In this document: positions 28,101 to 58,780 of the stretch, piece by piece
Layout of the letters: each line of letters starts with the position of its first letter
Numbering within the stretch: position 1 is the stretch's first letter
NCBI GenBank assembly: GCA_963668025.2
Contig: CAXXTH010000023.1
Coordinates: 224,001 to 288,000 of the forward strand
From: Candidatus Hydrogenedentota bacterium
Lineage (GTDB): Bacteria; Hydrogenedentota; Hydrogenedentia; Hydrogenedentales; SLHB01
Direction of reading: 5' to 3'
Length of the DNA: 64,000 bases
Notes under the pieces: generated by a model
Seen by the model: only the letters and a program-made list of their open reading frames with translations
What the model was told of the DNA's origin: nothing
The model's database searches: none
Position numbers and translations under genes: made by a program

Positions 28101-29992
28101 ACCTATGCGGCGCATTCAGCCGGGCGCAAGGCTTTTTGCTCTTCTTCATGGCGCTCGTGTTGCCATGGGAGTTGTTTCAGCGTTTGCCTATTGTAGGTGG
28201 CACCGCCGCCAAACTCGCGGGCGCATTGCTCCTCCTCATGGGCCTGTTGCGCCTGCTGTTGTGCAAGCCCCGCGCATTACCGCGCACCCGGCTCGAAGGC
28301 CCCATCCTGCTCTTAGTTGCCGCATGCTTGCTCGCCACGGCCCACAGCATCGACCGCGCGGCATCGCTGGCGCTGTTGCAGGTATACGGCGCATATCTGC
28401 TCTTCTTCTATGCCGCCGCCAAGGCCGTGGGCAGCCCTATCGACGCACGCCGGTATGGCGCGGCGTTCATCGCATCGTCGGCTGCCGTGGCGGTGCTCAC
28501 CCTCGCATGCCGCGCCGGTTGGCTGTATCCCACCTGGTGGCAGCCGCTCACGATCCCCTGGACAGGCCGCCTCATTGATGTGGCGCGGGCAGGCGGATTG
28601 ATGCGTATGGCAGGCGCGAGCGCCGACCTCAATCAAGGCGTGCTCCCGCTGCTATTGGCCTTCGCGCTATCTGTTTTCCTCTTCGACTACCGAGCCTTGC
28701 GGCGTCCCGCACGCGTGGGGCTTCACGCCGCCCAAGCGCTCTTGGTGCTGGGCATGGCTATCGCCCAATCGCGCAGCTCGTTGTTGTGCGCGGCCATCGT
28801 GGTGCTGATCCCCGCCACGCGTGGTTTGCGCCAGTACATAGGAACGCGGCGCTTCATGGCGCTATTTGCGCTCGGAATCGCTGCGGGCGCTATTATCGCC
28901 CTTTTCGGCCTGCACCGAATCGTGGTGCGCGACGACTTATCCGTGCACTCCCGGATGATGGCCTACCGGGCGGGCATCGCCTTGCTGCCGCGGTATGCCC
29001 TGCTGGGCGCGGGCTTCAACGCCTCGGACGCCGCCATCGCACAGACGCCCTACGATGCGGAAACGGAAGGCCAAACCATTCACAACGTACCGTTGAAATT
29101 TCTGCTCGAAACGGGCGTCCTGGGTTTTACGGCGTATCTGTGGTTGTGGTTCACGATTGTTGCCGCGCCGATACGCTGCTTGCGGGCGAGCGGCGATCCC
29201 GCCTTGCAGCGCCTGGCGCGGGCCTTTCTCGCCGCATCGGGCTGCCTCTTCGCCGTCACGCTCGTGCAGCCCTTCATGGCCACGCCCGTATATCCCTTCC
29301 TGCTCGCCGTGGCCATGGGACCGTTGTCCATGCGGCGGGAAGCGGAGCCGGAATGGCGTATGCCCCGCGCCGTCCTGTATGCCGCCGCAGTGCTGGCGGG
29401 CCTGTTGGTGGCGTGCAACGTATATCGTTATCAGAAGGATTGCCGGTTGGTGGCGCGGTTCAGCGATGCGCTCGCGCCCGTGCCTCAGGCCGAACGGGAT
29501 GGCCGCTGGGCTGATGCCCAAGCTGGATATGAGGCTGCTTTGGCGTTCGCCGCGCCGGAGCTTGGCCCGCACCTGGGCGATGGGCCGTTCTACGATGCGC
29601 AAGCCCGCTTGTTTGATCTGCCGCGCATCTACGACGCCATGCATCTGGGCGCGCTCGATGTGGACCCCGAGGCGGCGTGCCGGCTGGGCGTCGGGCGCGT
29701 GTTGTTTTCTCTAGGCAATGCCAGCGGCGCGATGCCCTATTTCGACGCAGCTATCGCACGCGAGCCGGAATGGGCAGGTGCGCATTATGTCCGCGCCGAG
29801 GCTTTATGGCATATGGAGCGCTACACGGATGCGTTGCACGCATACGCCGAAGCAGCCCGCCTCGAACCGCTTCCCCGCAACCGGCTGCATCGCCTGGCAA
29901 TGCAGCGCATCAAAGATCGGACGGATCAGGCGGATCGGTCCGATCTCTTGGAGCGCGCCTTTTGGTTACTCAAGCGCGGCGTCGCCGAATAG
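28097..29992 (+). CDS. O-antigen ligase/Wzy-like membrane protein with C-terminal TPR
   Basis: Many TM helices, QSRS, HNVPL..LLETG.LG motif. Confidence 0.8.
   Translation: MNLCGAFSRAQGFLLFFMALVLPWELFQRLPIVGGTAAKLAGALLLLMGLLRLLLCKPRALPRTRLEGPILLLVAACLLATAHSIDRAASLALLQVYGAYLLFFYAAAKAVGSPIDARRYGAAFIASSAAVAVLTLACRAGWLYPTWWQPLTIPWTGRLIDVARAGGLMRMAGASADLNQGVLPLLLAFALSVFLFDYRALRRPARVGLHAAQALLVLGMAIAQSRSSLLCAAIVVLIPATRGLRQYIGTRRFMALFALGIAAGAIIALFGLHRIVVRDDLSVHSRMMAYRAGIALLPRYALLGAGFNASDAAIAQTPYDAETEGQTIHNVPLKFLLETGVLGFTAYLWLWFTIVAAPIRCLRASGDPALQRLARAFLAASGCLFAVTLVQPFMATPVYPFLLAVAMGPLSMRREAEPEWRMPRAVLYAAAVLAGLLVACNVYRYQKDCRLVARFSDALAPVPQAERDGRWADAQAGYEAALAFAAPELGPHLGDGPFYDAQARLFDLPRIYDAMHLGALDVDPEAACRLGVGRVLFSLGNASGAMPYFDAAIAREPEWAGAHYVRAEALWHMERYTDALHAYAEAARLEPLPRNRLHRLAMQRIKDRTDQADRSDLLERAFWLLKRGVAE
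29911..29946. repeat. Four GATC units at 9-bp period
   Basis: caaagatcg gacggatca ggcggatcg gtccgatct, similar to 9892-9945. Confidence 0.6.
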
Positions 29993-32875
29993 CAACACCA
30001 TGCGGTATTGCGCCAGTTCATCATCCACGGCCAGTTCCGTTGGTGTGGCAGGCTTGAAGCGCGCCAGCGGTTCGGCTTGCCCCTCGCCATATACCAGCGC
30101 TTCCTGAATGGGACGCTCAAAGGTGAGCGTGGCCGGTTTCGTCACCACCACGCGCATGCGGCGCGTTTGTTGCAGTTCCCGGCCATCTTCCGACGCGCAT
30201 ACCACACGGCCCGCGCTGGTTTGCACCACCAGTTTACCTCCGGCGCGAATAGTACCCGCGCCTTCCGCTAATAGCAGGCCGTGTTCGCCCATCAAAGCCA
30301 TGCCGTAATCCATCAAGCCCATATCCACGCGCTGGCCGGGCAGTTCAAGGACCGCTTCAGGTGCAGCGCCCATCAGGATATATAACATGCCATTGGCCAC
30401 GCGCCGGACCAGCAGCCGGGCGGTTTCTGGCGTGAAGGCTATGCGCGGCAACTCGGGGTTTGTTTTCCATGCCGTATCGCCAGCGGCATAAACACGCAGG
30501 CCCTTATCGGCGCATTTTTCGAGAGCTAACCGGGACTGCTCTTGCAGAGGCCCTAAGCAGATAACAAACCGAGCGGTTTTGGGCAGCGTTTCAATTGCGG
30601 ATTCCCGCCATACGCCGAAGACAGCCCCTTGGGACCACAGGGCTTTCAACGTTTCCAGCGCGCTGGGTATGGCGTTCGTGTCAGCTTCGGGCGCTAGGGC
30701 ATAGGCCGTTTCCGGCTGAATACGCCGGGCGAAGTATTCGCCGAACTGGGCCATGCGCCATAGCGCCCGCGCTGCATCCGCCATGAACGGCGTGCCGTGG
30801 TAGATGGAGCCATACCCGAAACCACTCGGCCAAGGGCAAAGGCCCACGCTCTGTTCCGAGGTGTTTTGCTGGGCATATTCGACGATGGGAGCGAACCAGC
30901 GCGGATCCGGTTGGTCGAGCGACCGGCGCAACGGCATGGGCTCGAAGGCCTGTTCCTTCGCGAGTACGCTCACACCCCACTCGTAGGACATGGCGGCCGA
31001 TGCGCCGCCCGCCAGGCTATAGTGCATGGCGTCGTCATATGTCTGGGGATTGTTCCAGCCGAGATTGCCGAATTCTTCGAGCAAGAGGGGCCGTTTCGAG
31101 CAGGCCGCATCCCAATATTGCGTCGTGGCGGCGATGTCCTCCGCCGCGAAATAGCCGTGCCAGGGCATCAAGGGCGCGTTTTCATTCGCGAGATAGGTGT
31201 CGCCGCCATCACTCAACGAGAACATATAGCCGGGAAACACGAGTTGGCGGCCTCCCACCTCACGGATCGCTTTAGCCATTTCGTCCGCCCAGCGCCGGTA
31301 GAGGAGCGTGTCACGCCGGATGCCAGGTTCGTTCGGGATGCCATCCCATTGCTGTGCTTCCGGGTCCATTTGGGAGGCGTCGGGGGCCTTAACATATGTC
31401 TCATTGGCCAAGTTGAACATCACATTTCCCGCGTTCTTCCACCGCCGCGCCAAGGTTTGCACATAGGTGCGCTGGAGGTCCAGATTGCGCAAGGAAAAGC
31501 TGTAGACATTGAAATCGTGCGCATGATTAAACGTAAACTGCTGGAATGAGCCGTCCGGGCTCTCGAATCCTAGATGGCCCGCCCATTGGTGGAACACGCA
31601 CACATCCAGCATGATGCCATTTTCCGCCGCGAGATAGACCGCCGCGTCCATGGCGCGCAGGGCGGGCTCATCGAGATAGGGGTCCACCCAAATCCGTACG
31701 ATGCGGTTGCCCGCGCGGCGCATGGCGGCGAAATCCTGGGCCGCCCGCACCGAATCAAAATCGCGCCATGTCCGCTCGATCCACACACTCGATGGGTAGT
31801 AATGCGTGCCTACATAGAAAGCGTCCTGGCCGTCAAAGTTGAAATTCGTTCCCGCCAGCTTCATGGGATTCGGGGTGTCGATCACATTTCCGACTACGAT
31901 AAAACCAGTCTCACGGGAATCAATAAGCTGGGGCTTGCCCGATTGGGCAGTGACATCCTGCCAGATCTCCGCACGGACGTCATGAAGCCCTTCCTGGCCT
32001 GCTATGGGAAAATCGCACACCGCTTCGATGGAGCCGCCTCCATCCGCAACCCGGCGCATTGTTTGAATTGGAATCCATTGGGTGCCGCCAGGTGCGCGTT
32101 GGAGAACATGCACCTCGAACGCCGCCGATGCCGTGCGACGATTATGGACGCGCAGGCGTACGCTGGCGCGCTCGCCCGCATGAACCGTTGCATATTCGGC
32201 AGTAAACGGCCCGGCTTGCAGGCCCGATGTATGCCGATGTCCAATGCTCTGCAGCAGGCTTAGCCATGCCGCAGGCTCCATCGCTTCAGCAGGCGCATCA
32301 AAAAAGAAGCCATAGAATTGGCTGCCGCCGAAGCGCTTCCCCACGAGCGAAGGAGCGTAGTAACTCATTAAAACGCCCGGATATCCGGCGGGCTGTCCGA
32401 AACGGTCGTAGGCCGTGAGGATGGGCAGCAATTCCGCCCGCGCTTCTTCGTCGATATTGTGTTTCGGGAATTCCTGGGGCGGGCGTATATACGCGCCATA
32501 CGCGCGGGCCTTGGAGAATGTGTAAGTGTCGAGCGGAAGCGGCGTATCCCCGGCGGTTCTGATCTCATGCGGCGCTGCGCCGCATGAGAACGCGCCGAGC
32601 CATAGCTCGGACGGCAATTTATCGGGCGGGCCGATCCATACGCAATCGCCGCCCGCCGCCATATGCGCCACCAGCGCCTGCGGCTCGAAGGCGCTCGATG
32701 GAACAATCGCGTATTCCGCGTCGAGCTTGCCTTCCAGGCCATGGGCCAGCGCGTCATCGGCCACCAAGAATATGCGTTGTTCCGTTCCAAGCATCTCACT
32801 CGCTCCCGCCCACGCTGGGCATGCCGCCGCCACTCCGCAAAATAGGATCGTCAGTAAATGGGAGGTATGGACCAT
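29966..32875 (-). CDS. Secreted multidomain clan GH-A glycoside hydrolase (GH5-like)
   Basis: Signal peptide; DFAAMR.AG..IVRIW, NLANET (acid/base), LLLEEFG (nucleophile). Confidence 0.7.
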   Translation of the reverse strand: MVHTSHLLTILFCGVAAACPAWAGASEMLGTEQRIFLVADDALAHGLEGKLDAEYAIVPSSAFEPQALVAHMAAGGDCVWIGPPDKLPSELWLGAFSCGAAPHEIRTAGDTPLPLDTYTFSKARAYGAYIRPPQEFPKHNIDEEARAELLPILTAYDRFGQPAGYPGVLMSYYAPSLVGKRFGGSQFYGFFFDAPAEAMEPAAWLSLLQSIGHRHTSGLQAGPFTAEYATVHAGERASVRLRVHNRRTASAAFEVHVLQRAPGGTQWIPIQTMRRVADGGGSIEAVCDFPIAGQEGLHDVRAEIWQDVTAQSGKPQLIDSRETGFIVVGNVIDTPNPMKLAGTNFNFDGQDAFYVGTHYYPSSVWIERTWRDFDSVRAAQDFAAMRRAGNRIVRIWVDPYLDEPALRAMDAAVYLAAENGIMLDVCVFHQWAGHLGFESPDGSFQQFTFNHAHDFNVYSFSLRNLDLQRTYVQTLARRWKNAGNVMFNLANETYVKAPDASQMDPEAQQWDGIPNEPGIRRDTLLYRRWADEMAKAIREVGGRQLVFPGYMFSLSDGGDTYLANENAPLMPWHGYFAAEDIAATTQYWDAACSKRPLLLEEFGNLGWNNPQTYDDAMHYSLAGGASAAMSYEWGVSVLAKEQAFEPMPLRRSLDQPDPRWFAPIVEYAQQNTSEQSVGLCPWPSGFGYGSIYHGTPFMADAARALWRMAQFGEYFARRIQPETAYALAPEADTNAIPSALETLKALWSQGAVFGVWRESAIETLPKTARFVICLGPLQEQSRLALEKCADKGLRVYAAGDTAWKTNPELPRIAFTPETARLLVRRVANGMLYILMGAAPEAVLELPGQRVDMGLMDYGMALMGEHGLLLAEGAGTIRAGGKLVVQTSAGRVVCASEDGRELQQTRRMRVVVTKPATLTFERPIQEALVYGEGQAEPLARFKPATPTELAVDDELAQYRMVLLFGDAALE

Positions 32876-34883: not shown

Positions 34884-34927
34884 AGACACCTCTTTTCTAG
34901 GAATGCCCTGGTTGATTAGTCCGAATA

Positions 34928-34993
34928 ACTGTATCGACTCACGTCTTGTGTATCGACCAAATTTAGAGTATCATGAATCCGCCGTGCTGTCAA
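34928..34993 (-). promoter_or_regulatory. Sigma70 promoter with two downstream operator copies
   Basis: Minus strand TTGACA(34993-34988)-17-TACTCT; operator-like actgtatcgactcacg (34928-34943) and tgtgtatcgaccaaat (34947-34962). Confidence 0.65.
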
Positions 34994-36239: not shown

Positions 36240-36240
36240 C

Positions 36241-36868
36241 CTACGCGTCCGGGAAGGTATAGACGAGTTTGCGCTCGATGCGATGCGTGCCGTCGGCGAT
36301 GGTGATCTCGATATCGCCCACATATTGGAATCCCATTTTCTGATACAGGTGGAAACCCGCGCCATTTTTGGGATTGGTGGTTAGTTCGATCCCCTTGCGC
36401 CCGGCGGCTTTGGCCGCGCCGATGAGCGTTTGCATGGAGAGATGCCCGAGTTTTTTGCCATGAAATTCGTCCGCGATGGCGATGCCCAGTTCCGGGATGT
36501 CATGGCCAAATTTCCATAGGAAGCTATGTCCGATGATGGCGTCTTCCCGCCAGATATGGGTACATGGCGCATTCATGGCGCTCGACCGCATCCAAAAGCG
36601 TCTTCCAGAGCGCTGTCGAGTTTGCCATCCATCGGATAAGGCGCGAAGAGAAACAGGCTGTCCTCGCTGAGGCCTTTGCAGGAACGCTTTTAGGGCAGCA
36701 TGGTCCGCCTTGGCCGCCGCGCGCACGGTGATGGGGGCCTGCGTTTTGCCAATCCGCCTCGATACACAAATTCCACGGCGTATCGCCGGAGATGCCCAGG
36801 ATGTCCGCGTTGTGTTTAATTGTAGGATCTCCACTCAACTGGGCCTGGATTGCCTGTACAAGGTCCAT
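36241..36868 (-). pseudogene. GNAT acetyltransferase, frameshifted
   Basis: C-terminal ELGIAIADEFHGKKLG..N.....LYQKMGF is in one frame; RBS-led N-terminus MDLVQAIQ is in another; several frame switches. Confidence 0.65.
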
Positions 36869-36889
36869 TTATTTGTCTCCCATACTTGC

Positions 36890-51646: not shown

Positions 51647-51781
51647 GAGAGAGTAGAAGCCGTTTGCCGGGCTTCATCCGATCTTGAAACGCCCATGAAT
51701 GTCAGCATTTTATTTGTAGAGAGATGAAAGCCTTTGTCTTTTGCCCGCGCGCTGGGTCTGTATACAGCGAAGGAACTATCT

Positions 51782-54229
51782 GTGATTAAGAAACTCGGCT
51801 TCATTCTATTAATGGCGATGGGCCTTCTTGCACCCATCTATCCTTGCGAGGCCTTGTCCGGCGAGACGCTCTCCCTTGACGGGGCCAATTGGGCGGGCGA
51901 CGCCAACATGACCGGCGGCCTGGACGCTGGAATGGCGGGTGACGCCGATGCGCTGGTCGCATCGGGCAGCGGGTATTCGAGCTATCCTACCACCTACGAT
52001 TTTGCGATCACGCTTGCGGAAGAGTATAGCCGGAGTCCCTATGTCGAATTTACCATTGGCTTCCGTTTGAATAGCATGCAAACATCCATAGGTATCGTGA
52101 AATGGGATGGTGTTCCGCTGTGCGTGTGCCACGCCAATGATGCCGTCGAGCAATTGGGCGCGAAACGGGTGCGGGTGGCCACCTCGGAATTCGATGTATC
52201 GGCGGGCGGGCATGTGCTGACGGTCGAGGCCGTGGACACGCCTGAAAATACCTACGACTTTTTTGAAGTCGACGCGGTTCAAGTGTTGCGGGTGGGACCT
52301 GCGCTTCCCGCTGCGCCTGTTCCCGCCGCCACCTGGTTAATTGTCCGGGGCGGCGATGAATCCGAAGCGGAATTGCTTAATATAGAGAAGCTGCAAGAGG
52401 AGATGACGGGCCTGCTGGGCTCCTCGCCGGAAGTGGTATCGGCTGGCGAACTGAGTGATGTGCAGAAAACCAGCAATAGCCTAGTTTTAGTGGGCACATA
52501 TGGCCGCAATGCTTTGAGCAAGGCGCTGCTGGACGCCGAAGGCCACCCGGCTCCCTTTGCTTCGGACGCCGCCTTTGTGCAGGAGCAAGGCTACATTGCT
52601 GGCGCATATCCCAGCTATTACGCCCCTCGCCAGAAAGTAATACTAGCCACGGGCTGGGATACCCTCGGGTCGGTTTTCGCTATCTCGCATTTGCGCACGA
52701 ACCTGCAAAACAGCGGTGATGGGCTGTATCTAGCCGCTGAGGGGAACGCGTCGAATCTCACGTCCGTATATAACGAATACCGCCCGGATGTGGCGAGGCG
52801 CGGGGTGTACTACAACATCGCCTATGGCATCAGCTTTGGCAAGCTGACGCCGGACAACTGGAATGCGTCGGACTGGGAGTATTGGGTGGACCAGTTAGTG
52901 GCTGCGCAATTGACCCATGTTGAGTTTTATATCTGGGGCAATGCGGAACTCGATTACCCCTATTCAACGGTCAACGCCACGCGCAACCATACTATGCGGC
53001 TGGCGCTGCAACACATGATCACCTACGCCCATAGCCGCGGCATGAAGGTGGTCTATCATTTCAGTCCAGGGATTATACCCTCGGATATTTATGGCGCGAA
53101 CAAGAGCGTGGGCAATTTCGCCGGAACGAGCGATTATGCCACGGCGGGCTACCCCTGTCCGTGCCCCGCAGATACGTCGCTATTGAGTTATAAAGGCCAT
53201 ACGTGGAACAACGCGATGGACCTTATTACGGATATTTTCCGGACGCAGATCGAGTATTTCGCCGAAGCCGACGAATTCCGCATGTGGTTTTATGATCCGG
53301 GCGGCTGCTGGTGTTCGGATGCGAAAAATGGATGCAAGAGCCATCAGGTGGAGCGCTTGATGACCCATGTCCAGACGTTTTTCCCGATTGTCCAGGCGAA
53401 CAATCCCGATGCGCGTTTCAGCGTGAGCACATGGCCGATCTGGCTGCTCGAAAATGGGGCCTATATTGGATACGCCTACGGCAACACGTTCCTCACTCAA
53501 CTCAAGACATATGCCCAAAGCCAAGATGCACTCGACCGGTTCGATGTAGCGGACACGCTGGCGTCTGAGAGTTCGTTTGTACCAGAAGGCATTTCAAAAG
53601 GTTTTGGCGGCGAGGGTTTCTTATTCGAGACCAATATCGAGACGGCATACCCCTTCTTGAATCCGCTGCTCGCCTTCACCAATGGGCTTATTGACCGGGG
53701 CGTGGGATGGGGATGCTCGGAGATGCATTTCCATCGCAACGAAGAAGGCTCGAAATATCCGATGTCGTTCTTCCTCGGACAGCGCATGTGGGATCATGAG
53801 CGTTCCGATTCGGATGTGACGATGGCGTATGCGCGCTGGATCGCCAATACGAATCCTACGTCCGCCCAGGAACTGCAACAAGCGTTTGTGCTGATGGATT
53901 CGTTCCATTACGACGGCTCCTCTTCGCAGGATATGACCGCCAAAGGCGCGCAAATCCGCGATTTAGTCGTCTCAGCCGTAGGCAGGCTTTCGGCGGAACG
54001 CCAGGCGAAGTTGGAATTTCTTACCACCACGGCGAAAGTGCTTGCCCTTTATGGAGAAGCCGCGGAAAATCCAGGCAATAGCACATTGTTGGATACGCTA
54101 TTCGCGTCTTATCGCACGGTGTTGGGCGAATCGGCCGCGTTCGCCCCGTTTTACCCATATGCCAGCCGCGCACGGTTTGACCAGCATGTTTCCTGGCTGC
54201 GGGCGGGATGGCGGAGCGCAGGTTTCTAA
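51782..54229 (+). CDS. Secreted uncharacterised protein, WFYDPxGCxC family paralog 3, with extra N-terminal beta-sandwich domain
   Basis: Signal peptide; YAHSRGM.V.Y, MWFYDPGGCWCSD...GC, TWPIW; start uncertain (51734-51782). Confidence 0.72.
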   Translation: MIKKLGFILLMAMGLLAPIYPCEALSGETLSLDGANWAGDANMTGGLDAGMAGDADALVASGSGYSSYPTTYDFAITLAEEYSRSPYVEFTIGFRLNSMQTSIGIVKWDGVPLCVCHANDAVEQLGAKRVRVATSEFDVSAGGHVLTVEAVDTPENTYDFFEVDAVQVLRVGPALPAAPVPAATWLIVRGGDESEAELLNIEKLQEEMTGLLGSSPEVVSAGELSDVQKTSNSLVLVGTYGRNALSKALLDAEGHPAPFASDAAFVQEQGYIAGAYPSYYAPRQKVILATGWDTLGSVFAISHLRTNLQNSGDGLYLAAEGNASNLTSVYNEYRPDVARRGVYYNIAYGISFGKLTPDNWNASDWEYWVDQLVAAQLTHVEFYIWGNAELDYPYSTVNATRNHTMRLALQHMITYAHSRGMKVVYHFSPGIIPSDIYGANKSVGNFAGTSDYATAGYPCPCPADTSLLSYKGHTWNNAMDLITDIFRTQIEYFAEADEFRMWFYDPGGCWCSDAKNGCKSHQVERLMTHVQTFFPIVQANNPDARFSVSTWPIWLLENGAYIGYAYGNTFLTQLKTYAQSQDALDRFDVADTLASESSFVPEGISKGFGGEGFLFETNIETAYPFLNPLLAFTNGLIDRGVGWGCSEMHFHRNEEGSKYPMSFFLGQRMWDHERSDSDVTMAYARWIANTNPTSAQELQQAFVLMDSFHYDGSSSQDMTAKGAQIRDLVVSAVGRLSAERQAKLEFLTTTAKVLALYGEAAENPGNSTLLDTLFASYRTVLGESAAFAPFYPYASRARFDQHVSWLRAGWRSAGF

Positions 54230-54265
54230 ATGAACATGCATCACATCAGGGCAGGATATATACAC

Positions 54266-55504
54266 ATGAAAACGATACAAGCCACGGCTCTACGGACAAC
54301 ATGGATGCGCTGGGTGGTTCTTGGCATAGTGGCATGTGGAGCGCTGTGCGCTCATGCCCAAGAAGGTGGAATGCTGCTGGATCCTTCTGGCAATCCCGCC
54401 ATGGACGCCGTTGTCACCGCACCCGGCACGGGCGGCCTCATCGCCGCCTGGAGCGCATACGACGGGTCGTGGTTCCGTGTGAAGGCCCGCGTGTCCAACG
54501 ACGGCGGCCAGGCCTGGAATGACCCTGTCCAATTATCGTCTGGAGAGCTGGACGCTTATTATCCGGCTATCGTTTCGGAAGGCGGAATGGCATACATCGC
54601 GTGGGCCGATACCGATGGCGCGAAATATGGCCAAGTCATGGCATGCGCCAGCTCCGACTCGGGCGCTACCTGGAGTGCGCCATATGCCGTATCGGACTCT
54701 GCTCCCGGCGTATCCCATCTCCGGCTGGCTGCGCAAGGTGCAACCGCGTGGCTGGTATGGACGGATTGCAGCTCGGGCGTATCCAATGTGATGGCGGCTT
54801 CAACCACTAACAGCGGCGCTTCGTGGTCATCGCCGCAGGCCGTGGCGGCCAGCGCGAAGCCTTGCCGTTATCCCAGCGTGGCGATGAAAGGCGGCGCGGC
54901 GCATTTGGTATGGGAGCAATGGGGCGCACAAGCGCCCGAGATCGCATACGCCAGCAAGACCGGCAACGACGCATGGACCACGCCCGTTTTGCTGAGCGCC
55001 GATGACCGGTGGGCGTCCGAGAGCCCTACGATTGCGGCCAACGCGGAAGACCTTTTCGTTGCATGGCGGCAGGATTCCGCTGACGTCTCCGTGATTAGCT
55101 TTACCCGTCTCCGTAATGGCCAGCCACTATGGGATATGCCCGTGGCGCTCGCGGCGGGCGCATCGAGCAGCTATCCCGAACTGGCTGCAACCGGCCAGCG
55201 TATCGTGCTGGCATACGAGCGTGAAGGGCAGGCGATGCTCCTGGAGAGCCTTGACGCAGGGGATGCCTGGGGCGAATCACAGGCGGTATCGGAATCGGGC
55301 TGGAACGGGCTTGCTCGTATCTGTTTAGGCCCGGTTTATTACTATATGACATGGACACAAGAAGCGGATGGAACCGTCCGCTTGGCGGTGGATCCCATGG
55401 GCGCTACGCCGGATATGCCTGCGGCGGCCGTGGCGGGGGCCGCATTATTGCTGGCCCTCATGGGCGCGCTGGGATGGCGTTTCAGCCGCCAGACAGGACG
55501 TTAA
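54266..55504 (+). CDS. Asp-box (BNR) sialidase-like beta-propeller with C-terminal sorting tail
   Basis: SNDGGQAW, SSDSGATW, STTNSGASW, SLDAGDAW; MPAAAV-TM-RFSR tail. Confidence 0.75.
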   Translation: MKTIQATALRTTWMRWVVLGIVACGALCAHAQEGGMLLDPSGNPAMDAVVTAPGTGGLIAAWSAYDGSWFRVKARVSNDGGQAWNDPVQLSSGELDAYYPAIVSEGGMAYIAWADTDGAKYGQVMACASSDSGATWSAPYAVSDSAPGVSHLRLAAQGATAWLVWTDCSSGVSNVMAASTTNSGASWSSPQAVAASAKPCRYPSVAMKGGAAHLVWEQWGAQAPEIAYASKTGNDAWTTPVLLSADDRWASESPTIAANAEDLFVAWRQDSADVSVISFTRLRNGQPLWDMPVALAAGASSSYPELAATGQRIVLAYEREGQAMLLESLDAGDAWGESQAVSESGWNGLARICLGPVYYYMTWTQEADGTVRLAVDPMGATPDMPAAAVAGAALLLALMGALGWRFSRQTGR

Positions 55505-55523
55505 CTGTATTAGGAGAACACAA

Positions 55524-56561
55524 ATGCCTACTATGAAACAAGTGGTGATCACCGCGCAGCGCACCATCGAGATCCAAGAGATCGAACGGCCCAAGGCGGT
55601 TCCTGGCTCCGTGTTGATTCGTGTGTGTTATTCGGGCATCTGCGGCACGGATTTGATGAATTACCGGGGCGATTTTGTCTGGGGCCGGGCGGGATATCCA
55701 AAGGTTCCCGGCCACGAGCTTTCCGGCATCATTGAAGCCGTGGGCGAAGGCGTCACGGGCTTCCAGCCGGGCGACCGCGTCGTGCCGGAATGCACCATCG
55801 GCTGCGGCGTCTGTGGCTATTGTAAAGCGGGTAACTACAGCCTATGCAAGAACCGCCTTAAATACTCGAATGGCGGCATGGCCGAGTACGTGGCCATTCC
55901 CGCGAAGGCAGTGCATCATTTACCCGAAAACACGTCTCTGCAAGATGGCGCATTGATTGAACCCGTGGCCGTGGGCTGCAATGCCGCCCTCAAAGCCGGG
56001 AATGTATTTGGCAAATATGTCGGCGTCATCGGCGGCGGCACCATCGGCCTGGGCGCATTGATGACGCTCCAGCTCAACGGCGCGGCGAAATCCTTTATAT
56101 TCGAGCTGGTGGACGAACGCATCGAGCTGGCCAAACAGCTCGGGGCCACGATGGGCATCAATAGCAAGCAGGTCGAGCCGAAACAGGCTGTGCTGGACGC
56201 AACGCAAGGCCACTGCCTTGACGCCGTCATCGTAGCCAGCGCGGGCACCGCGAAGACCCTCGGCCTGGCGCTCGAGGTATTGGCGATGCAAGGCGTTGTC
56301 GTCGTGGTCGGCCTAAGCGGCGGCCAGCTCTCGCAATTCGACGCCGACGACCTGTGCGACAAAGAGGCGAGCATCGTGGGCAGCCACTCGAGCCCCGGCA
56401 TCTGGGAGCAACTCATCAACGCCATCGGCGCGGGACGTTATCCCCTTGGCCCATTGACGAGCCATGTGTTCCCGCTGGAGCAAGGCGCGGAAGCCTTCCG
56501 CGTGCTCGATGATCCCACTCAGCCCACGCAAAAAGTGCTGCTGGAAGCCTCCAAAGGATAA
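55524..56561 (+). CDS. Zn-dependent medium-chain dehydrogenase (sorbitol/threonine DH-like)
   Basis: GICGTD, GHE.SG, C..C..C.......C structural Zn site, EP, GGGTIG; RBS AGGAG. Confidence 0.9.
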   Translation: MPTMKQVVITAQRTIEIQEIERPKAVPGSVLIRVCYSGICGTDLMNYRGDFVWGRAGYPKVPGHELSGIIEAVGEGVTGFQPGDRVVPECTIGCGVCGYCKAGNYSLCKNRLKYSNGGMAEYVAIPAKAVHHLPENTSLQDGALIEPVAVGCNAALKAGNVFGKYVGVIGGGTIGLGALMTLQLNGAAKSFIFELVDERIELAKQLGATMGINSKQVEPKQAVLDATQGHCLDAVIVASAGTAKTLGLALEVLAMQGVVVVVGLSGGQLSQFDADDLCDKEASIVGSHSSPGIWEQLINAIGAGRYPLGPLTSHVFPLEQGAEAFRVLDDPTQPTQKVLLEASKG

Positions 56562-57001: not shown

Positions 57002-58780
57002 CTACTCTTCGACCATCGTAATAGAATCCACCGATGTTTTTCCGGCCAGCGCCGCGCCTCCCCAGAGCCTGCCCACGTCTACTCGGAACTGCGTGATGGT
57101 GTCTTTCCAGGCTTCATTGTCTTGGGTCTCGATGACATACCGGACGTATTTACGCGAATTGGGTTTCTGGCCGATGTTGATGACTTTGTTGTTCGCGCCC
57201 CAGGCGGCGTCTTTGTCCGTGATCCAATAAAGATCAATGCCGTTCGCATTGGATTCATTCTTGAGGCATACCGCCACCTTGTCCACGCATCGGGCGTTTA
57301 TCGTGAGCCCCGCTGGACTCAGCATGAATGCGTCCGAGCGGTCCGTATTGAACTCGCCGCAAACGGCATGGATATCTCCATCGTTTGTGAGTGCGGTTTT
57401 GCTCATGCCTTCCATGGTCCAGCCTTCCAGCGAAGCGCCATCAAAGAGATAATTCTTCCCACGGCCCAGCGCCTCGGATTCTCCCACGAAGAATGTGCGC
57501 GTGAGCGTGCGCAACGGGGCGCTTTCACCCGATGGCAATGGATGCGCCACCGTAAATATGCCGGTAATGCTGTCCAAGGCGGGCCTGTTGCCGCCATTCG
57601 GTGTTACGAACGCCAGCTTCACCCGCTGCTCCGACTGGGGGGCCAGTTTCACATCGAGCGAACCCGGCAACAGGGCGAGCGTGGCGGTAGGCGTCATGAG
57701 CGCGTTCATACTTACTTCCACCCTCGAGTCGTTCCGCAATATAAGCATGGCGCTGCCATTTCCTGAATCGGAGTAGGCGGGAAGGGAGAAGGCTACATCC
57801 ACATTGTTTTTGACGCCTTGTAGTTTCATGACGCTTTCACAATCCTTGCTCAAAATGAAATCATCTTTTAGAATCCCATCGAGCGTGAGATTCACGATAT
57901 CGGGCTTGCCGCCATTCATCGCCACCCACATCACCTGGTCAACCGCGCCATAGGTGGTGCCCCAGAAATCCTTCATGCCGCCGGTCACCCCTAATGTGTA
58001 GTACTCCAACCCGTTGACATCATGTTTGCCGTACATATGATTGTGCCCGGCAATGACCGTATGCGGTTTACCCTCGAGCAGCTTCTCGATGGGCTCCCAG
58101 AGGTCGGGCCGGGCCTCGGGGCATTTCGCCCAAATCGGGCGGTGCATGAAGGCGAAGATCCAGCGCGGATTCGGATTTTCCTCGAGTGCGCGCTTGATCA
58201 TATCCATCTGCGCCTCGCTGATGGAACTCCAGCTATCGGTGCGGTAGGGATCTTCCGTGTTGAGGCAAAGAAACAGCACATCCTTATATACAAATGAATA
58301 GAAGCTTTTACCGAAACGTGTGCGCCAAATCTCTTCCTGCTTCGTGGAACTCATATCATGGTTGCCCGGCACCCGGAAGAAGGGCATGGTGAATTGATTC
58401 GCCATTGCGTCAAATTCATCCCATTGCCGCACCAGCTCCGCTTCATCCGGCAGATACCCTTGAACGAGATCCCCCACACTCATGACGAACTCGGGATGCA
58501 GCAGATTGAGTTTTTGAACAGCGTCTTCGAAAACGCCTGGCCGGAACCCAGCGGTCCGGTCCGCCACGATGGCGAATTGAAAGTCCTGTGGATCGTTATC
58601 GAAATTCAGGTTGGTCCAGGGGGCAGGGGCCGTCGTTTTTTCCAGGTTAGTGACAGAATGGGAAGAAAAAGTGTTGCAAGATGCCATGGATACAACTAAA
58701 ACGGCGAACAGGGCGATATGGCTACACTTGTTTGTCAATTCCGGCATGACGGCTCGCCTCCTCCTTTTGTTACTTTCCAT
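57002..58780 (-). CDS. Exported calcineurin-like metallophosphoesterase with C-terminal beta domains
   Basis: IVADRT, VGDLVQG, PGNHD, FMHRP, AGHNH; lipobox-like MASC. Confidence 0.85.
   Translation of the reverse strand: MESNKRRRRAVMPELTNKCSHIALFAVLVVSMASCNTFSSHSVTNLEKTTAPAPWTNLNFDNDPQDFQFAIVADRTAGFRPGVFEDAVQKLNLLHPEFVMSVGDLVQGYLPDEAELVRQWDEFDAMANQFTMPFFRVPGNHDMSSTKQEEIWRTRFGKSFYSFVYKDVLFLCLNTEDPYRTDSWSSISEAQMDMIKRALEENPNPRWIFAFMHRPIWAKCPEARPDLWEPIEKLLEGKPHTVIAGHNHMYGKHDVNGLEYYTLGVTGGMKDFWGTTYGAVDQVMWVAMNGGKPDIVNLTLDGILKDDFILSKDCESVMKLQGVKNNVDVAFSLPAYSDSGNGSAMLILRNDSRVEVSMNALMTPTATLALLPGSLDVKLAPQSEQRVKLAFVTPNGGNRPALDSITGIFTVAHPLPSGESAPLRTLTRTFFVGESEALGRGKNYLFDGASLEGWTMEGMSKTALTNDGDIHAVCGEFNTDRSDAFMLSPAGLTINARCVDKVAVCLKNESNANGIDLYWITDKDAAWGANNKVINIGQKPNSRKYVRYVIETQDNEAWKDTITQFRVDVGRLWGGAALAGKTSVDSITMVEE

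What the first reader, a model, noticed from the sequence alone, without database searches (positions are those of the whole stretch)
29966..58780. Transporter-less, co-regulated glycan/amino-sugar utilisation island built on DUF1559 pilins and surface-anchored binding proteins
Seen: about 29 kb holding a GH-A hydrolase, three paralogous uncharacterised proteins, two DUF1559 prepilins, two CBM9-like/PASTA surface proteins, an Asp-box propeller, a phosphoesterase, a cytoplasmic kinase/aminotransferase/Glu-DH/Zn-DH/URO-D set and a GntR-LacI regulator. A shared operator occurs at most promoters. No SusC/D, TonB-dependent, ABC or MFS transporter is recognisable. Established: Bacteroidota PULs use SusCD, and DUF1559 prepilins are highly expanded in Planctomycetota-like lineages with unresolved function. 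Inference: this is a PUL analogue in which pilin-like proteins and anchored lectin-like proteins capture or import a nitrogen-containing or modified glycan.
Basis: partly seen in the sequence, partly recalled or inferred. Interest (0 to 1): 0.85.

Follow-up and report, generated by a model that had tools for sequence, protein, structure and literature searches.

The report
Glycan island with private pilin genes
This is a real sugar-polymer-degrading gene cluster of an uncultured bacterium. It pairs pilin-like genes with cell-tethered sugar-binding proteins and a rare new enzyme family, but it most likely imports its products through an ordinary transporter encoded elsewhere in the genome.

Summary
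The gene content is as described, and no transporter lies in the 29 kb or within 177 kb on the contig. The three "uncharacterised paralogs" belong to a rare family: 147 of 1.84 billion representatives. They have a GH84/GH20/GH115-type three-domain fold. The regulator looks broken only through ten one-base assembly errors. An AraR-like motif, TGTAYCGATACA, overlaps seven promoter regions.

"Import by pilins instead of a transporter" is not supported.
- The closest DUF1559 paralogs sit beside MFS sugar transporters.
- Related clusters in other genomes carry ABC or DUF6785 membrane proteins.
- The same motif sits in the promoter of a GH38, family-A-paralog and ABC operon on contig C9.

What stands is a recurrent cassette of DUF1559 pilin, then a PASTA-tailed tethered protein, then a large glycan enzyme. 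It covers 9 of 14 PASTA genes in this genome. It is rare in relatives: 1 of 29 loci.

The genome has seven secretin matches and no TonB-dependent receptor match. How glycans cross the outer membrane therefore stays open. Earlier notes of this scan reported regulator-pilin-enzyme cassettes in other phyla.

The parts
29966..32875 (-). GH5-like exported hydrolase, 969 aa
   Evidence: PF00150 at 27.2 bits, cut-off 23.5. N-terminal signal peptide seen by eye. Orthologs at 46-48% identity lie next to family A in L002, L004 and L015. No PDB relative by sequence.
32946..34889 (-). Family A member A1, 647 aa, with signal peptide
   Evidence: No Pfam or NCBIfam match. 42% identical to A2. Signal peptide seen by eye.
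34929..34961 (.). Two operator-like sites in the divergent A1 / URO-D intergenic region
   Evidence: CTGTATCGACTCAC scores 16.8 in the PWM scan, and GTGTATCGACCAAA follows it. The second resembles the CTGTACCGACCAAG block upstream of the regulator orthologs of L004, L015 and L017.
35031..36239 (+). URO-D / MtaA-like protein, 402 aa, cytoplasmic
   Evidence: PF01208 at 66.7 bits. Weak MtaA/CmuA matches far below cut-off. A URO-D-like gene lies near family A in L007, L009, L014 and L018; the L018 one is 71% identical.
36241..36834 (-). GNAT acetyltransferase; its 5' part is uncertain
   Evidence: PF00583 and PF13302. Two of the ten one-base assembly differences fall inside it. Orthologs in L001 and L018.
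36816..37987 (-). GntR-head / LacI-type-body regulator (AraR-like); frameshifted in the window by assembly errors
   Evidence: GntR at 58.8 bits and Peripla_BP_3 at 71.2 bits. Frame changes mapped. Eight one-base differences in run X2 lie in this gene. With them the frame is open for 391 codons.
38041..38054 (.). Operator-like site just downstream of the regulator's promoter-like site (38093-38064, minus strand)
   Evidence: CTGTACCGATACTC scores 16.4. Promoter scan. The ACTGTACCGA block is shared with L004, L015 and L017.
38524..39738 (-). Glutamate dehydrogenase-type enzyme, 404 aa
   Evidence: ELFV_dehydrog at 215.7 bits. Ortholog at 59% identity in L001.
39835..41310 (-). Class-III aminotransferase, 491 aa
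   Evidence: Aminotran_3 at 333 bits. The nearest solved chains are GABA-type transaminases and PLP racemases. Orthologs in L001 (68%), L004 and L015.
41252..42832 (-). FGGY sugar kinase, xylulokinase-like; promoter-like site at 43027-42998
   Evidence: FGGY_N and FGGY_C. TIGR01312 at 341.6 bits, below its cut-off of 380. Promoter TTGACA-18-TATACT matches 11 of 12.
43134..44321 (-). DUF1559 prepilin-like protein a
   Evidence: N_methyl at 40.1 bits, DUF1559 at 33.4 bits (cut-off 23.3), TIGR04294 H-X9-DG at 22.1 bits (cut-off 19). Promoter-like site at 44411-44383 overlaps a GATAGAC half-site.
44707..44735 (+). Promoter-like site of DUF1559b with the operator-like site (44711-44724) in its spacer
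   Evidence: TTGACA-17-TAGGAT. CACAATCGATACTC scores 15.1.
44974..46062 (+). DUF1559 prepilin-like protein b, 362 aa
   Evidence: Pfam. AF2 model with pLDDT 89.9. 24 of the 25 chains with Z of 2 or more are type IV pilins or pseudopilins; the best is Z 4.2. Closest paralogs, at 73% and 63%, are at C17:1328159 and C17:1350878.
46489..48429 (+). Family A member A2, 646 aa
   Evidence: AF2 pLDDT 89.9, pTM 0.91. Foldseek finds GH115, GH138, GH67, GH20 and GH84 at E 1e-14 to 1e-12. VIA gives Z 21.5 to GH84 with 486 residues aligned. Export is uncertain because the hydrophobic N-terminus is only 15 residues long.
48584..48628 (+). Operator-like site plus promoter-like site of CBM9a
   Evidence: GTCTATCGATACAC scores 21.5. 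TTGACG-17-TACACT.
48752..49942 (+). Tethered protein a: signal peptide, CBM9-like domain, PASTA, C-terminal helix and basic tail
   Evidence: CBM9_1 at 31.4 bits and PASTA at 55.3 bits. Termini. The nearest ESM Atlas clusters are CBM9_1 (score 0.90).
50166..50210 (+). Operator-like site plus promoter-like site of CBM9b
   Evidence: Same 14-mer, score 21.5. TTGACT-17-TACACT.
50313..51524 (+). Tethered protein b, 70% identical to a
51734..54229 (+). Family A member A3, 831 aa, distant paralog with signal peptide
   Evidence: 22% identical to A2, E 5e-20. Ortholog at 49% identity in G012 next to CBM9-like and BNR genes. Paralog at C9:84007-86310.
54230..55504 (+). BNR/Asp-box propeller with signal peptide and a C-terminal helix plus basic tail
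   Evidence: BNR_2 at 36.7 bits, cut-off 31.4. Termini.
55368..56561 (+). Zn-dependent dehydrogenase; the true start is probably near 55520
   Evidence: ADH_N and ADH_zinc_N. The best NCBIfam matches, scyllo-inosose 3-dehydrogenase and galactitol-1-P dehydrogenase, are all below cut-off.
57002..58780 (-). Metallophosphoesterase with a lipoprotein-like N-terminus
   Evidence: Metallophos at 43.2 bits. N-terminus.
46218..46267 (.). REP-like palindromic repeat, not an operator; further copies at 38244 and 56751. A second type lies at 51618-51650 and 56850-56905.
   Evidence: the cores give up to 116 and 155 blastn hits genome-wide. Contigs of public runs break at these places.

Best explanation
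This is one regulon-controlled locus for degrading a complex glycan, probably one that contains hexosamine. It has four working parts.

1. Exported enzymes depolymerise the glycan outside the cytoplasm. They are a GH5-like enzyme, three members of a rare family with a GH84/GH20/GH115-type fold, a BNR propeller and a lipoprotein phosphoesterase.
2. A surface module holds the polymer at the cell. It consists of two CBM9-like proteins tethered by a PASTA domain plus a C-terminal helix, and two locus-specific DUF1559 pilin-like proteins. One of the genome's type II secretion / type IV pilus machines would assemble the pilins. I take the pilins to act in capturing the locus's own glycan. Almost equally likely, they act in exporting the locus's own proteins.
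3. A cytoplasmic set converts the imported amine-bearing sugar. The class-III aminotransferase with glutamate dehydrogenase removes the amine. The Zn-dehydrogenase, FGGY kinase, URO-D-like protein and GNAT complete the set.
4. An AraR-like GntR/LacI-type repressor binds TGTAYCGATACA-like sites that overlap the promoters.

Transport across the cytoplasmic membrane is done by a conventional transporter encoded elsewhere. The best candidate is the ABC system of the C9 operon, which carries the same motif.

Shown: gene content, folds, motif positions, cassette recurrence and transporter linkage in paralogous and related loci. Inferred: the substrate, repression, the role of the pilins and the identity of the transporter.
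For: - Content and export signals.
- Family A fold.
- Regulator intact once assembly errors are removed.
- Motif over promoters. Heptamer enrichment 5 against 0.61 expected. Related blocks upstream of the regulator orthologs in L004, L015 and L017.
- Of the 11 non-island PWM hits at 15.0 or more, 7 are intergenic, against a background fraction of 0.14. Five of those 7 lie next to genes of the island's own kinds: GH38, family-A paralog and ABC (two sites); GH38; GFO/IDH/MocA, GluDH paralog and AP_endonuc_2 with a URO-D-like gene nearby; and a secreted protein that shares the CBM9 genes' promoter and signal peptide.
- Conserved linkage in relatives: GNAT-FGGY-AT3-GluDH-A-A (L001); GH5like-A (L002, L004, L015); A-regulator (L004, L015, L017), with AT3 further on in L004 and L015; A-UROD-GNAT-ABC (L018); CBM9-A3-BNR-CBM9 in G012.
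- Cassette of DUF1559, then PASTA-tailed protein, then glycan enzyme: 8 of 12 by tblastn against a null of 0.24, and 9 of 14 by Pfam.
- Machinery present: 6 T2SS-F genes, 7 secretin matches and 1 prepilin peptidase.
Against: - There are no expression data. No RNA run was listed.
- No binding or activity was tested.
- The PWM was trained on six island sites, so their own ranks are circular. The motif is AT-rich, which by itself favours intergenic DNA.
- The exact heptamer is absent from the intergenic DNA of the orthologous loci. Only related blocks are shared.
- No motif was seen before A2, A3 or the phosphoesterase gene.
- The C9 ABC system is only 37% identical to the transporter linked in L018. 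The best match (47%, on C19) shows a stop and frame changes.
- 32 of 66 DUF1559 genes have no recognised sugar transporter within 15 kb.
- The aminotransferase's nearest solved relatives act on amino acids or GABA, not sugars.
- The PASTA-tail cassette is nearly confined to this genome: 1 of 29 loci elsewhere. It may be a lineage quirk.
- The pilin fold match is weak (best Z 4.2).
Confidence: 0.55

Rival explanations
1. The locus needs no membrane transporter. DUF1559 pilins and the tethered lectin-like proteins capture the glycan and also bring it into the cell.
For: No transporter lies in the 29 kb, and none of the ABC CUT1, Sugar_tr, SSF or DUF6785 types lies within 177 kb on the contig. 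32 of 66 DUF1559 genes likewise lack a nearby transporter. The genome has no TonB-dependent receptor match and seven secretin matches.
Against: The cytoplasmic kinase, aminotransferase and dehydrogenase set needs its substrate inside the cytoplasm, and no pilus system is known to carry sugars across the inner membrane (established knowledge). The closest DUF1559 paralogs sit beside MFS Sugar_tr genes. DUF1559 genes are enriched near transporters: 34 of 66 against 14.2 expected. Related clusters carry ABC or DUF6785 proteins. The same motif lies at the promoter of an ABC operon on C9.
Confidence: 0.07
2. DUF1559 proteins are cargo-specific pseudopilins. Each locus supplies its own subunit to a type II secretion machine so that the locus's tethered protein and large enzymes are exported or displayed. 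They do not bind glycan.
For: In 8 cassettes the DUF1559 gene directly precedes a gene for an exported, tethered protein, and a large exported enzyme usually follows. The fold is pilin or pseudopilin-like, with EpsG and PulG among the matches. There are six T2SS-F genes and seven secretin matches. On C19 a T2SS-F gene lies between an ABC permease gene and a PASTA gene. From recall: the pullulanase secretion genes of Klebsiella are co-regulated with their surface-anchored enzyme.
Against: The tails of the tethered proteins are well conserved (45-83% identity over ten copies, 37% in an eleventh). Recognising the tail would therefore not need a private pilin per locus. 57 of 66 DUF1559 genes have no PASTA-tailed partner. 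No cargo-specific pseudopilin is known (recall). No interaction test could be completed.
Confidence: 0.3
3. It is not one system. A cytoplasmic amine or polyol catabolic operon (FGGY, aminotransferase, GluDH, regulator, GNAT) merely lies beside unrelated glycan-degrading and surface-protein genes.
For: The aminotransferase's nearest solved relatives act on GABA or amino acids. The units lie on both strands and have separate promoter-like sites. The DUF1559 pair is missing between the two halves in L001.
Against: GNAT-FGGY-AT3-GluDH is directly followed by two family A genes in L001. The regulator and the aminotransferase lie beside GH5like-A in L004 and L015. The same motif occurs at promoters of both halves. 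Paralogous AT3 and GluDH genes lie in other glycan loci of this genome.
Confidence: 0.08

Closest known systems
Bacteroidota polysaccharide utilisation loci (SusC/SusD type)
   Same: One regulated locus combines surface glycan-binding proteins, exported glycan enzymes and downstream catabolic genes.
   Different: There is no SusC-type TonB-dependent transporter and no SusD. PF00593 gave 0 matches in the whole 93.75%-complete genome. The binders are CBM9-like proteins on a PASTA plus C-terminal-helix tether. Pilin-like genes are present. The inner-membrane transporter is not in the locus.
DUF1559 / H-X9-DG prepilin-type family of PVC-group bacteria (PF07596, TIGR04294, TIGR02532)
   Same: Both island proteins are members: N-terminal methylation motif, DUF1559 over its cut-off, and the H-X9-DG tail. 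The family is massively expanded here, with 66 matches. That compares with 68 paralogs in Planctopirus limnophila (passage in PMC10632474).
   Different: Here the genes head glycan cassettes and are paired with PASTA-tailed tethered proteins. The family's function is unknown in print (passages in PMC10632474 and PMC2754498). Pfam's name 'SBP_bac_10' suggests a solute-binding protein, but the model gave pilin matches only.
AraR regulon of Bacillus subtilis (GntR-head / LacI-body repressor)
   Same: The domain make-up is the same chimera (abstract of PMC1950556). The operator is of a similar palindromic type: the AraR consensus is ATTTGTACGTACAAAT (passage in PMC3592433), and the motif here is TGTAYCGATACA. 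Several operators lie in several promoters, including the regulator's own. A dispersed regulon that includes a transporter gene (araE in that passage) would match the C9 candidate here.
   Different: The effector is unknown. Binding was not tested. The organism and the target genes are different.
GH84 O-GlcNAcases, GH20 hexosaminidases, GH115/GH67 alpha-glucuronidases and DUF4838
   Same: Family A has the same three-part build: an N-terminal alpha/beta domain, a TIM barrel and a helical C-terminal domain. VIA gives Z 21.5 to GH84 (486 residues aligned, rmsd 5.9), about 20 to GH20 and 18.3 to GH115. Foldseek gives E 1e-14 to GH115. The N-terminal domain aligns with that of a DUF4838 protein (hhalign probability 95.6%).
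   Different: No sequence-level membership was found: no Pfam or NCBIfam match. An invariant W-F-Y-D-P-G-G-C-x-C-x-x-C motif with a fourth invariant Cys is present. Catalytic residues and substrate are unknown.
Type IV pilus uptake of DNA with a DNA-binding minor pilin (ComP of Neisseria), and type II secretion of surface-anchored pullulanase
   Same: A pilin-fold subunit with a specialised globular domain would work with a secretin machine, either to bring a polymer in or to put an enzyme out. ComP and pseudopilins are among the weak structural matches.
   Different: Both parallels are from recall and were not tested. No glycan-binding pilin and no cargo-private pseudopilin is known.

Membership tests
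SusC/SusD-type PUL | Adjacent SusC-like TonB-dependent transporter and SusD-like lipoprotein | tested here: not met
   None of the 18 island ORFs matched such a family. PF00593 gave 0 matches in the own genome, which is 93.75% complete. SusD families were not searched genome-wide.
DUF1559 / H-X9-DG prepilin family | Prepilin N-terminal cleavage/methylation motif with Glu at +5 | tested here: met
   N_methyl at 40.1 and 35.1 bits against a cut-off of 21.2; TIGR02532 matched both. The GFTLIELL motif is visible in both proteins.
DUF1559 / H-X9-DG prepilin family | PF07596 domain and the H-X9-DG C-terminal motif | tested here: met
   PF07596 at 33.4 and 38.3 bits against a cut-off of 23.3. TIGR04294 at 22.1 bits against a cut-off of 19 for protein a. 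For protein b the model was not listed at E 0.001, but H303, D314, G315 and H316 are invariant in the 52-sequence alignment.
Type IV pilin / pseudopilin fold | Long N-terminal helix packed on a beta-sheet | tested here: inconclusive
   24 of the 25 chains with Z of 2 or more are pilins or pseudopilins, but the best Z is only 4.2 (120 residues aligned, rmsd 3.7). Foldseek matched the N-terminal helix only, at E 0.9.
Periplasmic solute-binding protein fold (suggested by the Pfam name SBP_bac_10) | Two-lobed PBP fold | tested here: inconclusive
   No PBP-type chain appears among the 25 VIA rows or the Foldseek rows. An absent match does not exclude the fold.
GH84 / GH20 / GH115 / GH67 glycoside hydrolases (for family A) | Three-domain architecture with a central TIM barrel | tested here: met
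   Z 21.5 to GH84, about 20 to GH20 and 18.3 to GH115, with 460-497 residues aligned. Foldseek probability 1.00.
GH84 / GH20 / GH115 / GH67 glycoside hydrolases (for family A) | Sequence membership and catalytic acid pair | tested here: not met
   No Pfam or NCBIfam family at E 0.01 or 0.001. Identity to the structural matches is 8-13%. Catalytic residues were not mapped.
CBM9 | PF06452 over its cut-off | tested here: met
   31.4 and 34.5 bits against a cut-off of 23.4, covering only profile positions 89-182 and 112-183 of 185. ESM Atlas neighbours are CBM9_1 clusters (score 0.90). Sugar binding was not tested.
PEP-CTERM / exosortase substrates | C-terminal Pro-containing motif, hydrophobic helix and basic cluster, recognised by the NCBIfam model; exosortase present in the genome | tested here: inconclusive
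   The layout D(L/V)P(V/A)AGL, then a helix, then RKR is visible in 10 of 11 aligned tails. No PEP-CTERM model matched any of 12 proteins at E 1. An exosortase gene is present at 207.5 bits.
AraR-type GntR/LacI chimeric repressors | GntR winged-helix head plus LacI-type sugar-binding body | tested here: met
   GntR at 58.8 bits and Peripla_BP_3 at 71.2 bits. The frame is continuous after the ten one-base differences of run X2 are applied.
AraR-type GntR/LacI chimeric repressors | Binds palindromic operators in its target promoters, and a sugar relieves repression | not testable with these tools
   Only motif positions are available.

The most novel reading that the evidence does not exclude
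This outer-membrane-bearing bacterium gave no TonB-dependent receptor match. It may use its many secretin/pilus machines as glycan capture and uptake devices. Each glycan locus would supply a private DUF1559 pilin, whose variable globular part recognises that locus's polymer, and a tethered binding or cutting protein. Fibre retraction would then draw the polymer to, or through, a secretin into the periplasm, as competence pili do with DNA. Ordinary ABC, MFS or SSF transporters would complete import. This would give the very large DUF1559 family its function, and it would describe an outer-membrane glycan uptake route that is an alternative to SusC/D.
Probability: 0.17. Interest if true: 0.9.

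Novelty: new variant of a known kind. Interest (0 to 1): 0.6.

Why it matters
DUF1559 is one of the largest protein families without a function. This genome gave 66 matches, and one planctomycete has 68 paralogs (passage in PMC10632474). The open paper library holds the term in only four papers; the two I read give it no function.

This genome offers a concrete handle. The pilin genes head sugar-regulated cassettes, next to tethered carbohydrate-binding or beta-helix proteins and large glycan enzymes. Binding, localisation and secretion tests can therefore be designed locus by locus.

The locus also holds three members of a rare enzyme-like family with a hexosaminidase-type fold: 147 of 1.84 billion representatives. 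That family is a candidate new glycoside hydrolase family.

The lack of any TonB-dependent receptor match, together with seven secretin matches, raises the question of how such bacteria move glycans across the outer membrane.

The headline claim of a locus that does without a transporter should be dropped.

Tried and rejected
1. Regulator as a pseudogene. This was my own reading. I rejected it: ten one-base differences in run X2 restore the frame.
2. REP-like palindromes as operators. Rejected: more than 100 hits genome-wide.
3. DUF1559 as a pilin-anchored solute-binding protein, like the archaeal bindosome. No PBP-type match appeared and only pilins were found. The ABC systems here also carry their own SBP domains, often fused to a permease.
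4. Exact heptamer conserved in orthologous loci. Not found in their intergenic DNA.
5. The C22 473-aa secreted protein as a family A relative. hhalign probability is 2.2%.
6. Metagenome scan with the CBM9/PASTA protein. It returned one weak locus only.
7. Expression. No RNA holder was listed.
8. PEP-CTERM model. No match in 12 proteins.
9. PDB sequence searches gave nothing for the GH5-like, URO-D-like and BNR proteins.
10. Interaction test of DUF1559b with the CBM9/PASTA protein. It could not be queued again, so there is no result.
11. PASTA-tail cassette in relatives. The strong module (116 bits or more) was found only in the own genome among the 121 genomes of the order searched. DUF1559 lay within 1.5 kb in 1 of 29 loci of other genomes.
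12. DUF6785 membrane proteins, which are linked to family A in Chthonomonadales, have two homologs in this genome. No top-60 motif hit lies at either place.

Full report
WHAT IS THERE

The window is contig C23:224001-288000 of a 6.15 Mb assembly in 24 contigs, 93.75% complete. The closest named relatives of its proteins are Hydrogenedentes/Hydrogenedentales and Armatimonadota metagenome bins. I gave 18 ORFs between 29966 and 58780 to Pfam.

On the minus strand:
- a 969-aa GH5-like protein (Cellulase 27.2 bits, cut-off 23.5);
- A1 (647 aa, no family).

On the plus strand:
- a URO-D-like protein.

On the minus strand again:
- a GntR/Peripla_BP_3 regulator;
- a glutamate dehydrogenase-type enzyme;
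- a class-III aminotransferase;
- an FGGY kinase;
- DUF1559a.

On the plus strand:
- DUF1559b;
- A2 (646 aa, no family);
- two CBM9_1+PASTA proteins;
- A3 (831 aa, no family);
- a BNR_2 propeller;
- a Zn-dehydrogenase.

On the minus strand:
- a metallophosphoesterase.

None of the 18 matched a transporter family. NCBIfam added only a near-cut-off xylulokinase match for the kinase (341.6 against 380) and below-cut-off names for the rest.

The paralogy claims hold. A1/A2 are 42% identical, A3/A2 22% (E 5e-20), the CBM9 pair 70% and the DUF1559 pair 44%.

By eye, six proteins start with signal peptides: the GH5-like protein, A1, A3, the BNR protein and both CBM9 proteins. The phosphoesterase has a lipoprotein-like start. 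A2 has only a 15-residue hydrophobic start. The kinase, aminotransferase, dehydrogenases, URO-D-like protein and GNAT have none. The locus therefore has an exported half and a cytoplasmic half, and something must carry the product between them.

THE REGULATOR IS NOT BROKEN

In the window the regulator is split over three frames with two in-frame stops when compared with the intact ortholog of L015. I first read it as a pseudogene. I then laid contigs of four public runs on 34500-54499. This showed that run X2, at depth 17-49, lacks one base at ten places: 36558, 36594, 37113, 37128, 37264, 37392, 37531, 37597, 37616 and 37773. All ten lie in short homopolymers. Removing them in a script gives a single open frame of 391 codons that aligns without a break, at 46% identity, with residues 26-372 of the L015 regulator. 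The breaks are local assembly errors. Two of them also affect the 5' part of the GNAT gene. The head is a GntR domain (58.8 bits).

THE SHARED OPERATOR

Two kinds of conserved intergenic sequence exist.

The first kind is palindromic elements at 38244, 46218 and 56751, and at 51618 and 56850-56905. These are REP-like repeats whose cores give up to 116 and 155 blastn hits genome-wide. Contigs of the public runs break at them. They are not operators.

The second kind is a motif with core YCGATAC, ideal form TGTAYCGATACA. Its sites and promoter contexts are as follows.

| Place | Position | Promoter-like site |
|---|---|---|
| A1 / URO-D divergent region | two sites from 34929 | not scanned for a core promoter |
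| Regulator | 38041 | just downstream of the regulator's promoter-like site |
| DUF1559b | 44711 | in the spacer of TTGACA-17-TAGGAT |
| CBM9a | 48584 | abuts the -35 of TTGACG-17-TACACT |
| CBM9b | 50166 | abuts the -35 of TTGACT-17-TACACT |
| FGGY | half-site | overlaps the best promoter-like site |
| DUF1559a | half-site | overlaps the best promoter-like site |

The heptamer occurs 5 times in 3.9 kb of island intergenic DNA against 0.61 expected from its 951 genome-wide occurrences (Poisson 4e-4).

The exact heptamer is absent from the intergenic DNA of orthologous loci. The blocks ACTGTACCGA and CAGTCTATCGGTAGAGTG are nevertheless shared upstream of the regulator orthologs of L004, L015 and L017.

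The two CBM9 sites are copies of one duplicated promoter. A third copy, with nearly the same signal peptide, heads an unrelated 473-aa secreted protein at C22:201846.

The motif type resembles the AraR consensus ATTTGTACGTACAAAT (passage in PMC3592433). AraR has the same GntR/LacI chimeric build (abstract of PMC1950556).

No site was found before A2, A3 or the phosphoesterase gene.

A DISPERSED REGULON THAT INCLUDES A TRANSPORTER

I built a symmetrised weight matrix from six island sites and scanned all 543,579 CG-centred 14-mers of the genome. The ranks of the island's own sites are circular, so only hits outside the island carry information. Of the 11 non-island hits scoring 15.0 or more, 7 are intergenic, against a background intergenic fraction of 0.14. 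The seven are:
- Two sites 126 bp apart in the promoter region of C9:81435. One lies in the spacer of TTGACC-17-TAAGAT. The operon reads GH38, a fourth family A member (27% identical to A3), a fused SBP-permease and, by the genome-wide Pfam search, a second permease.
- One site 107 bp upstream of a GH38 gene on C17.
- One site in the divergent region before a GFO/IDH/MocA, GluDH-paralog and AP_endonuc_2 unit, with a URO-D-like gene 2 kb away.
- The C22 promoter copy described above.
- One site near a response-regulator gene and one near a sigma-factor-like gene, which may be chance.

Five of the seven thus lie next to genes of the island's own kinds, and two of them next to a conventional ABC importer.

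FAMILY A

A word-indexed search of 5.8 billion proteins found 59 homologs, none with a Pfam domain. They come from Hydrogenedentes, Armatimonadota and unnamed bins. A profile of 30 of them, run against 1.84 billion representatives, found 147 proteins at E 0.001, 82 at 1e-10 and 56 at 1e-30. I scanned 18 of the remote hits with Pfam. Six showed weak matches to GH20b, GH67N, DUF4838 or GHL10, one a weak match to the unrelated DUF2607, and 11 showed nothing.

The AlphaFold model of A2 has pLDDT 89.9 and pTM 0.91. Foldseek ranks GH115, GH138, GH67, GH20 and GH84 first, at E 1e-14 to 1e-12 and TM 0.47-0.58. Re-alignment puts GH84 O-GlcNAcases first (Z 21.5, 486 residues, rmsd 5.9). GH20 hexosaminidases follow (Z about 20), then PgaB's PNAG hydrolase domain (Z 18.6) and GH115 (Z 18.3). 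The N-terminal domain aligns with that of a DUF4838 protein (hhalign probability 95.6%, 172 columns).

The family has an invariant W-F-Y-D-P-G-G-C-x-C-x-x-C stretch and a fourth invariant Cys. I read it as a new glycoside-hydrolase-like family. That its best structural neighbours all act on N-acetylhexosamine substrates is a lead to the substrate, not a demonstration.

DUF1559 AND THE TETHERED PROTEINS

The genome gave 66 DUF1559 matches, all over the cut-off. The model of DUF1559b has pLDDT 89.9. In Foldseek it matches only pilin N-terminal helices. In the Foldseek-independent search, 24 of the 25 chains with Z of 2 or more are type IV pilins or pseudopilins, with a best Z of 4.2. It looks like an enlarged pilin, not a solute-binding protein.

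The tail of the CBM9 proteins is a PASTA domain, then D(L/V)P(V/A)AGL, a hydrophobic helix and RKR. This tail recurs in the genome. Pfam finds 14 PASTA genes: 12 and 2. For 8 of them the immediate upstream neighbour on the same strand is a DUF1559 gene. For CBM9a the DUF1559 gene lies two genes upstream, giving 9 of 14. By tblastn the count is 8 of 12, against a null mean of 0.24 and a maximum of 3 in 5000 relocations.

The next gene in these cassettes is GH127 (twice), GH31, a sulfatase, a GHL6/GH42M protein, a 999-aa NPCBM protein or an unknown 782-aa protein. A LacI, AraC, DeoR or GntR/PBP regulator gene lies beside most of them.

The N-terminal domains of the tethered proteins differ. Few pairs are alike by BLAST. 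The island's are CBM9-like. One other looks like a right-handed beta-helix (ESM Atlas score 0.95-0.97, a lead only).

No PEP-CTERM model matched any of 12 tails, although an exosortase gene is present.

The cassette is largely a feature of this genome. Among the 121 genomes of the order searched, the 11 matches of 116 bits or more are all its own, and the best elsewhere scores 89.8 bits. Only 1 of 29 loci from other genomes has a DUF1559 gene within 1.5 kb.

Earlier notes of this scan describe regulator-pilin-enzyme cassettes in Lentisphaerae and Verrucomicrobia. I did not test those genomes.

THE TRANSPORTER QUESTION

The island's DUF1559 genes are 177 kb from the nearest ABC CUT1 permease, Sugar_tr, SSF or DUF6785 gene on the contig. 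The observation "transporter-less" is therefore right. It is not evidence that pilins do the transport, for four reasons.

1. 25 of 66 DUF1559 genes lie within 15 kb of an ABC permease (null 8.0, sd 2.6). 15 of 24 permease clusters have a DUF1559 gene that close.
2. With all four transporter types counted, 34 of 66 lie within 15 kb, against a null of 14.2 (sd 3.4, maximum 25).
3. The closest paralogs of DUF1559b sit in two loci that both contain an MFS sugar transporter:
   - the 73% paralog: DeoR, unknown, DUF1559, GH43-like, unknown, aminotransferase III, GFO/IDH/MocA, MFS Sugar_tr;
   - the 63% paralog: FucI-like, DUF1559, GH43-like, unknown, MFS Sugar_tr, GH106.
4. Among the 18 family A loci from other genomes:
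   - L018 has A, URO-D (71%), GNAT, a fused SBP-permease and a permease;
   - L010 has an SBP and a permease;
   - L015 has an ABC ATPase and permease upstream;
   - L003, L008 and L010 have a DUF6785/DUF6784 membrane protein beside GH130 and A.

Against my reading, 32 of 66 DUF1559 genes have no such transporter nearby. Also, the C9 ABC system is only 37% identical to the L018 transporter. The closest match (47%, at the end of C19) has a stop and frame changes that may again be assembly errors.

CONSERVATION OF LINKAGE

tblastn of the island's proteins on the 18 loci shows:
- GNAT, FGGY (52%), AT3 (68%), GluDH (59%), A2 ortholog (65%) and a further family A gene in L001;
- GH5like then A in L002, L004 and L015;
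- A then the regulator in L004, L015 and L017, with the aminotransferase further on in L004 and L015.

URO-D-like genes lie near family A members in L007, L009, L014 and L018. In a genome of another genus of the same family (G012) the order is CBM9-like, CBM9-like, A3 (49%), BNR (28%), CBM9-like (49%). DUF1559 occurs in only 2 of the 18 loci, L008 and L014. The enzyme and catabolic core is therefore conserved, and the pilin pair is an add-on of this lineage.

MACHINERY

The genome has:
- 12 T2SS-F domain matches in 6 genes;
- one prepilin peptidase;
- 7 secretin matches;
- no match to the TonB-dependent receptor barrel (the genome is 93.75% complete);
- 5 full Sugar_tr genes;
- 18 SSF matches;
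- 24 ABC permease clusters.

HOW IT MOST LIKELY WORKS

Shown: the parts, their folds, the motif positions, and the linkage patterns.

Inferred:
- The repressor sits on the TGTAYCGATACA sites until a breakdown product binds its LacI-type body.
- The exported enzymes cut a hexosamine-containing glycan that is held at the surface by the tethered CBM9-like proteins.
- Oligomers enter through a transporter encoded elsewhere. The C9 ABC system is the best candidate.
- The aminotransferase with glutamate dehydrogenase removes an amine.
- The dehydrogenase and the kinase feed the carbon skeleton into central metabolism.

For the DUF1559 proteins I commit, with low confidence, to locus-specific glycan capture on a short fibre. 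My reason is that a private, variable pilin per locus makes most sense if it recognises something particular to that locus, whereas the tails of the tethered proteins are conserved. A role as cargo-specific pseudopilins in exporting the locus's proteins is almost as likely. The interaction prediction that might have helped was lost in the queue.

COMPARISON AND NOVELTY

The locus works like a polysaccharide utilisation locus but fails the defining SusC/SusD test. Its regulator is of the AraR type.

Its pilin genes are ordinary members of DUF1559, whose function is unknown in print. The full-text search for "DUF1559" found four papers, and the passages I read in two of them give no function. 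"H-X9-DG" found one irrelevant paper. "Hydrogenedentes + polysaccharide + pilin" found three papers, none relevant by their titles. Subscription journals are not covered by these searches.

Three things are new:
- the rare family A;
- the cassette of pilin, PASTA-tailed protein and glycan enzyme;
- the combination of many secretins with no TonB-dependent receptor match.

The claim that the locus dispenses with a transporter is not supported.

Noticed in passing
window 36558-37773: Ten single-base extra letters relative to contigs of an independent run are clustered in 1.2 kb, all in short homopolymers. They break the regulator and shift part of the GNAT gene. The rest of the 20 kb that was laid showed almost none. 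This is a locally unpolished stretch of the assembly.
   Followed up: yes
window 38244-38293, 46218-46267, 56751-56800; 51618-51650, 56850-56905: Two families of REP-like palindromic intergenic repeats, whose cores give up to 116 and 155 blastn hits across the genome. Public-run contigs end or jump at them.
   Followed up: partly
window 48570-48830, 50150-50400; G000:C22:201640-201990: Three genes share a promoter, leader and signal-peptide module. The mature C22 protein (473 aa, no Pfam family) is unrelated to the CBM9 proteins. This suggests shuffling of a 5' expression/export cassette.
   Followed up: partly
whole genome G000: No match to the TonB-dependent receptor barrel family, but seven secretin matches, six T2SS-F genes and 66 DUF1559 matches.
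   Followed up: partly
G000:C9:86318-88621, C10:631140-635240, C13:79076; L018:2851-5652: ABC sugar transporters in which the solute-binding domain is fused to a permease, giving proteins of 767-933 aa. They occur in this genome and in a related bin.
   Followed up: no
G000:C19:71471-76264 (L052): A T2SS-F platform gene lies directly after an ABC sugar permease gene and before a PASTA-domain gene. A DeoR regulator and a DUF1559, PASTA, GH127 cassette lie just downstream.
   Followed up: no
L003, L008, L010 (Chthonomonadales bins): A conserved cluster reads FGGY, creatininase-like, unknown, UxuA-like, DUF6785/DUF6784 membrane protein, GH130-like, unknown, family A. DUF6785 may be an unrecognised sugar transporter.
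   Followed up: no
window 20319-29992: A surface-polysaccharide biosynthesis cluster abuts the island's left end. It holds a pyruvyl transferase, an FrhB-like protein, a GT4/GT1 enzyme, a methyltransferase, an epimerase, TPR proteins and a Wzy_C/O-antigen-ligase-like protein with TPR repeats.
   Followed up: no
window 22-1404 and 17524-18837: A DDE transposase gene and a UPF0236-type transposase-like gene. A 1201-aa alpha-amylase-family protein lies at 9884-13489, and an Nramp-Usp fusion at 15287-17203.
   Followed up: no
G000:C10:276079-277841: A paralog of the island's metallophosphoesterase (37% identical over 56% of its length) lies next to another DUF1559 match.
   Followed up: no
G000:C19:242406-244687: The best own-genome match to the ABC transporter linked to URO-D and GNAT in L018 has one in-frame TGA, and its SBP part lies in several frames. 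It could be a pseudogene or another unpolished stretch.
   Followed up: no
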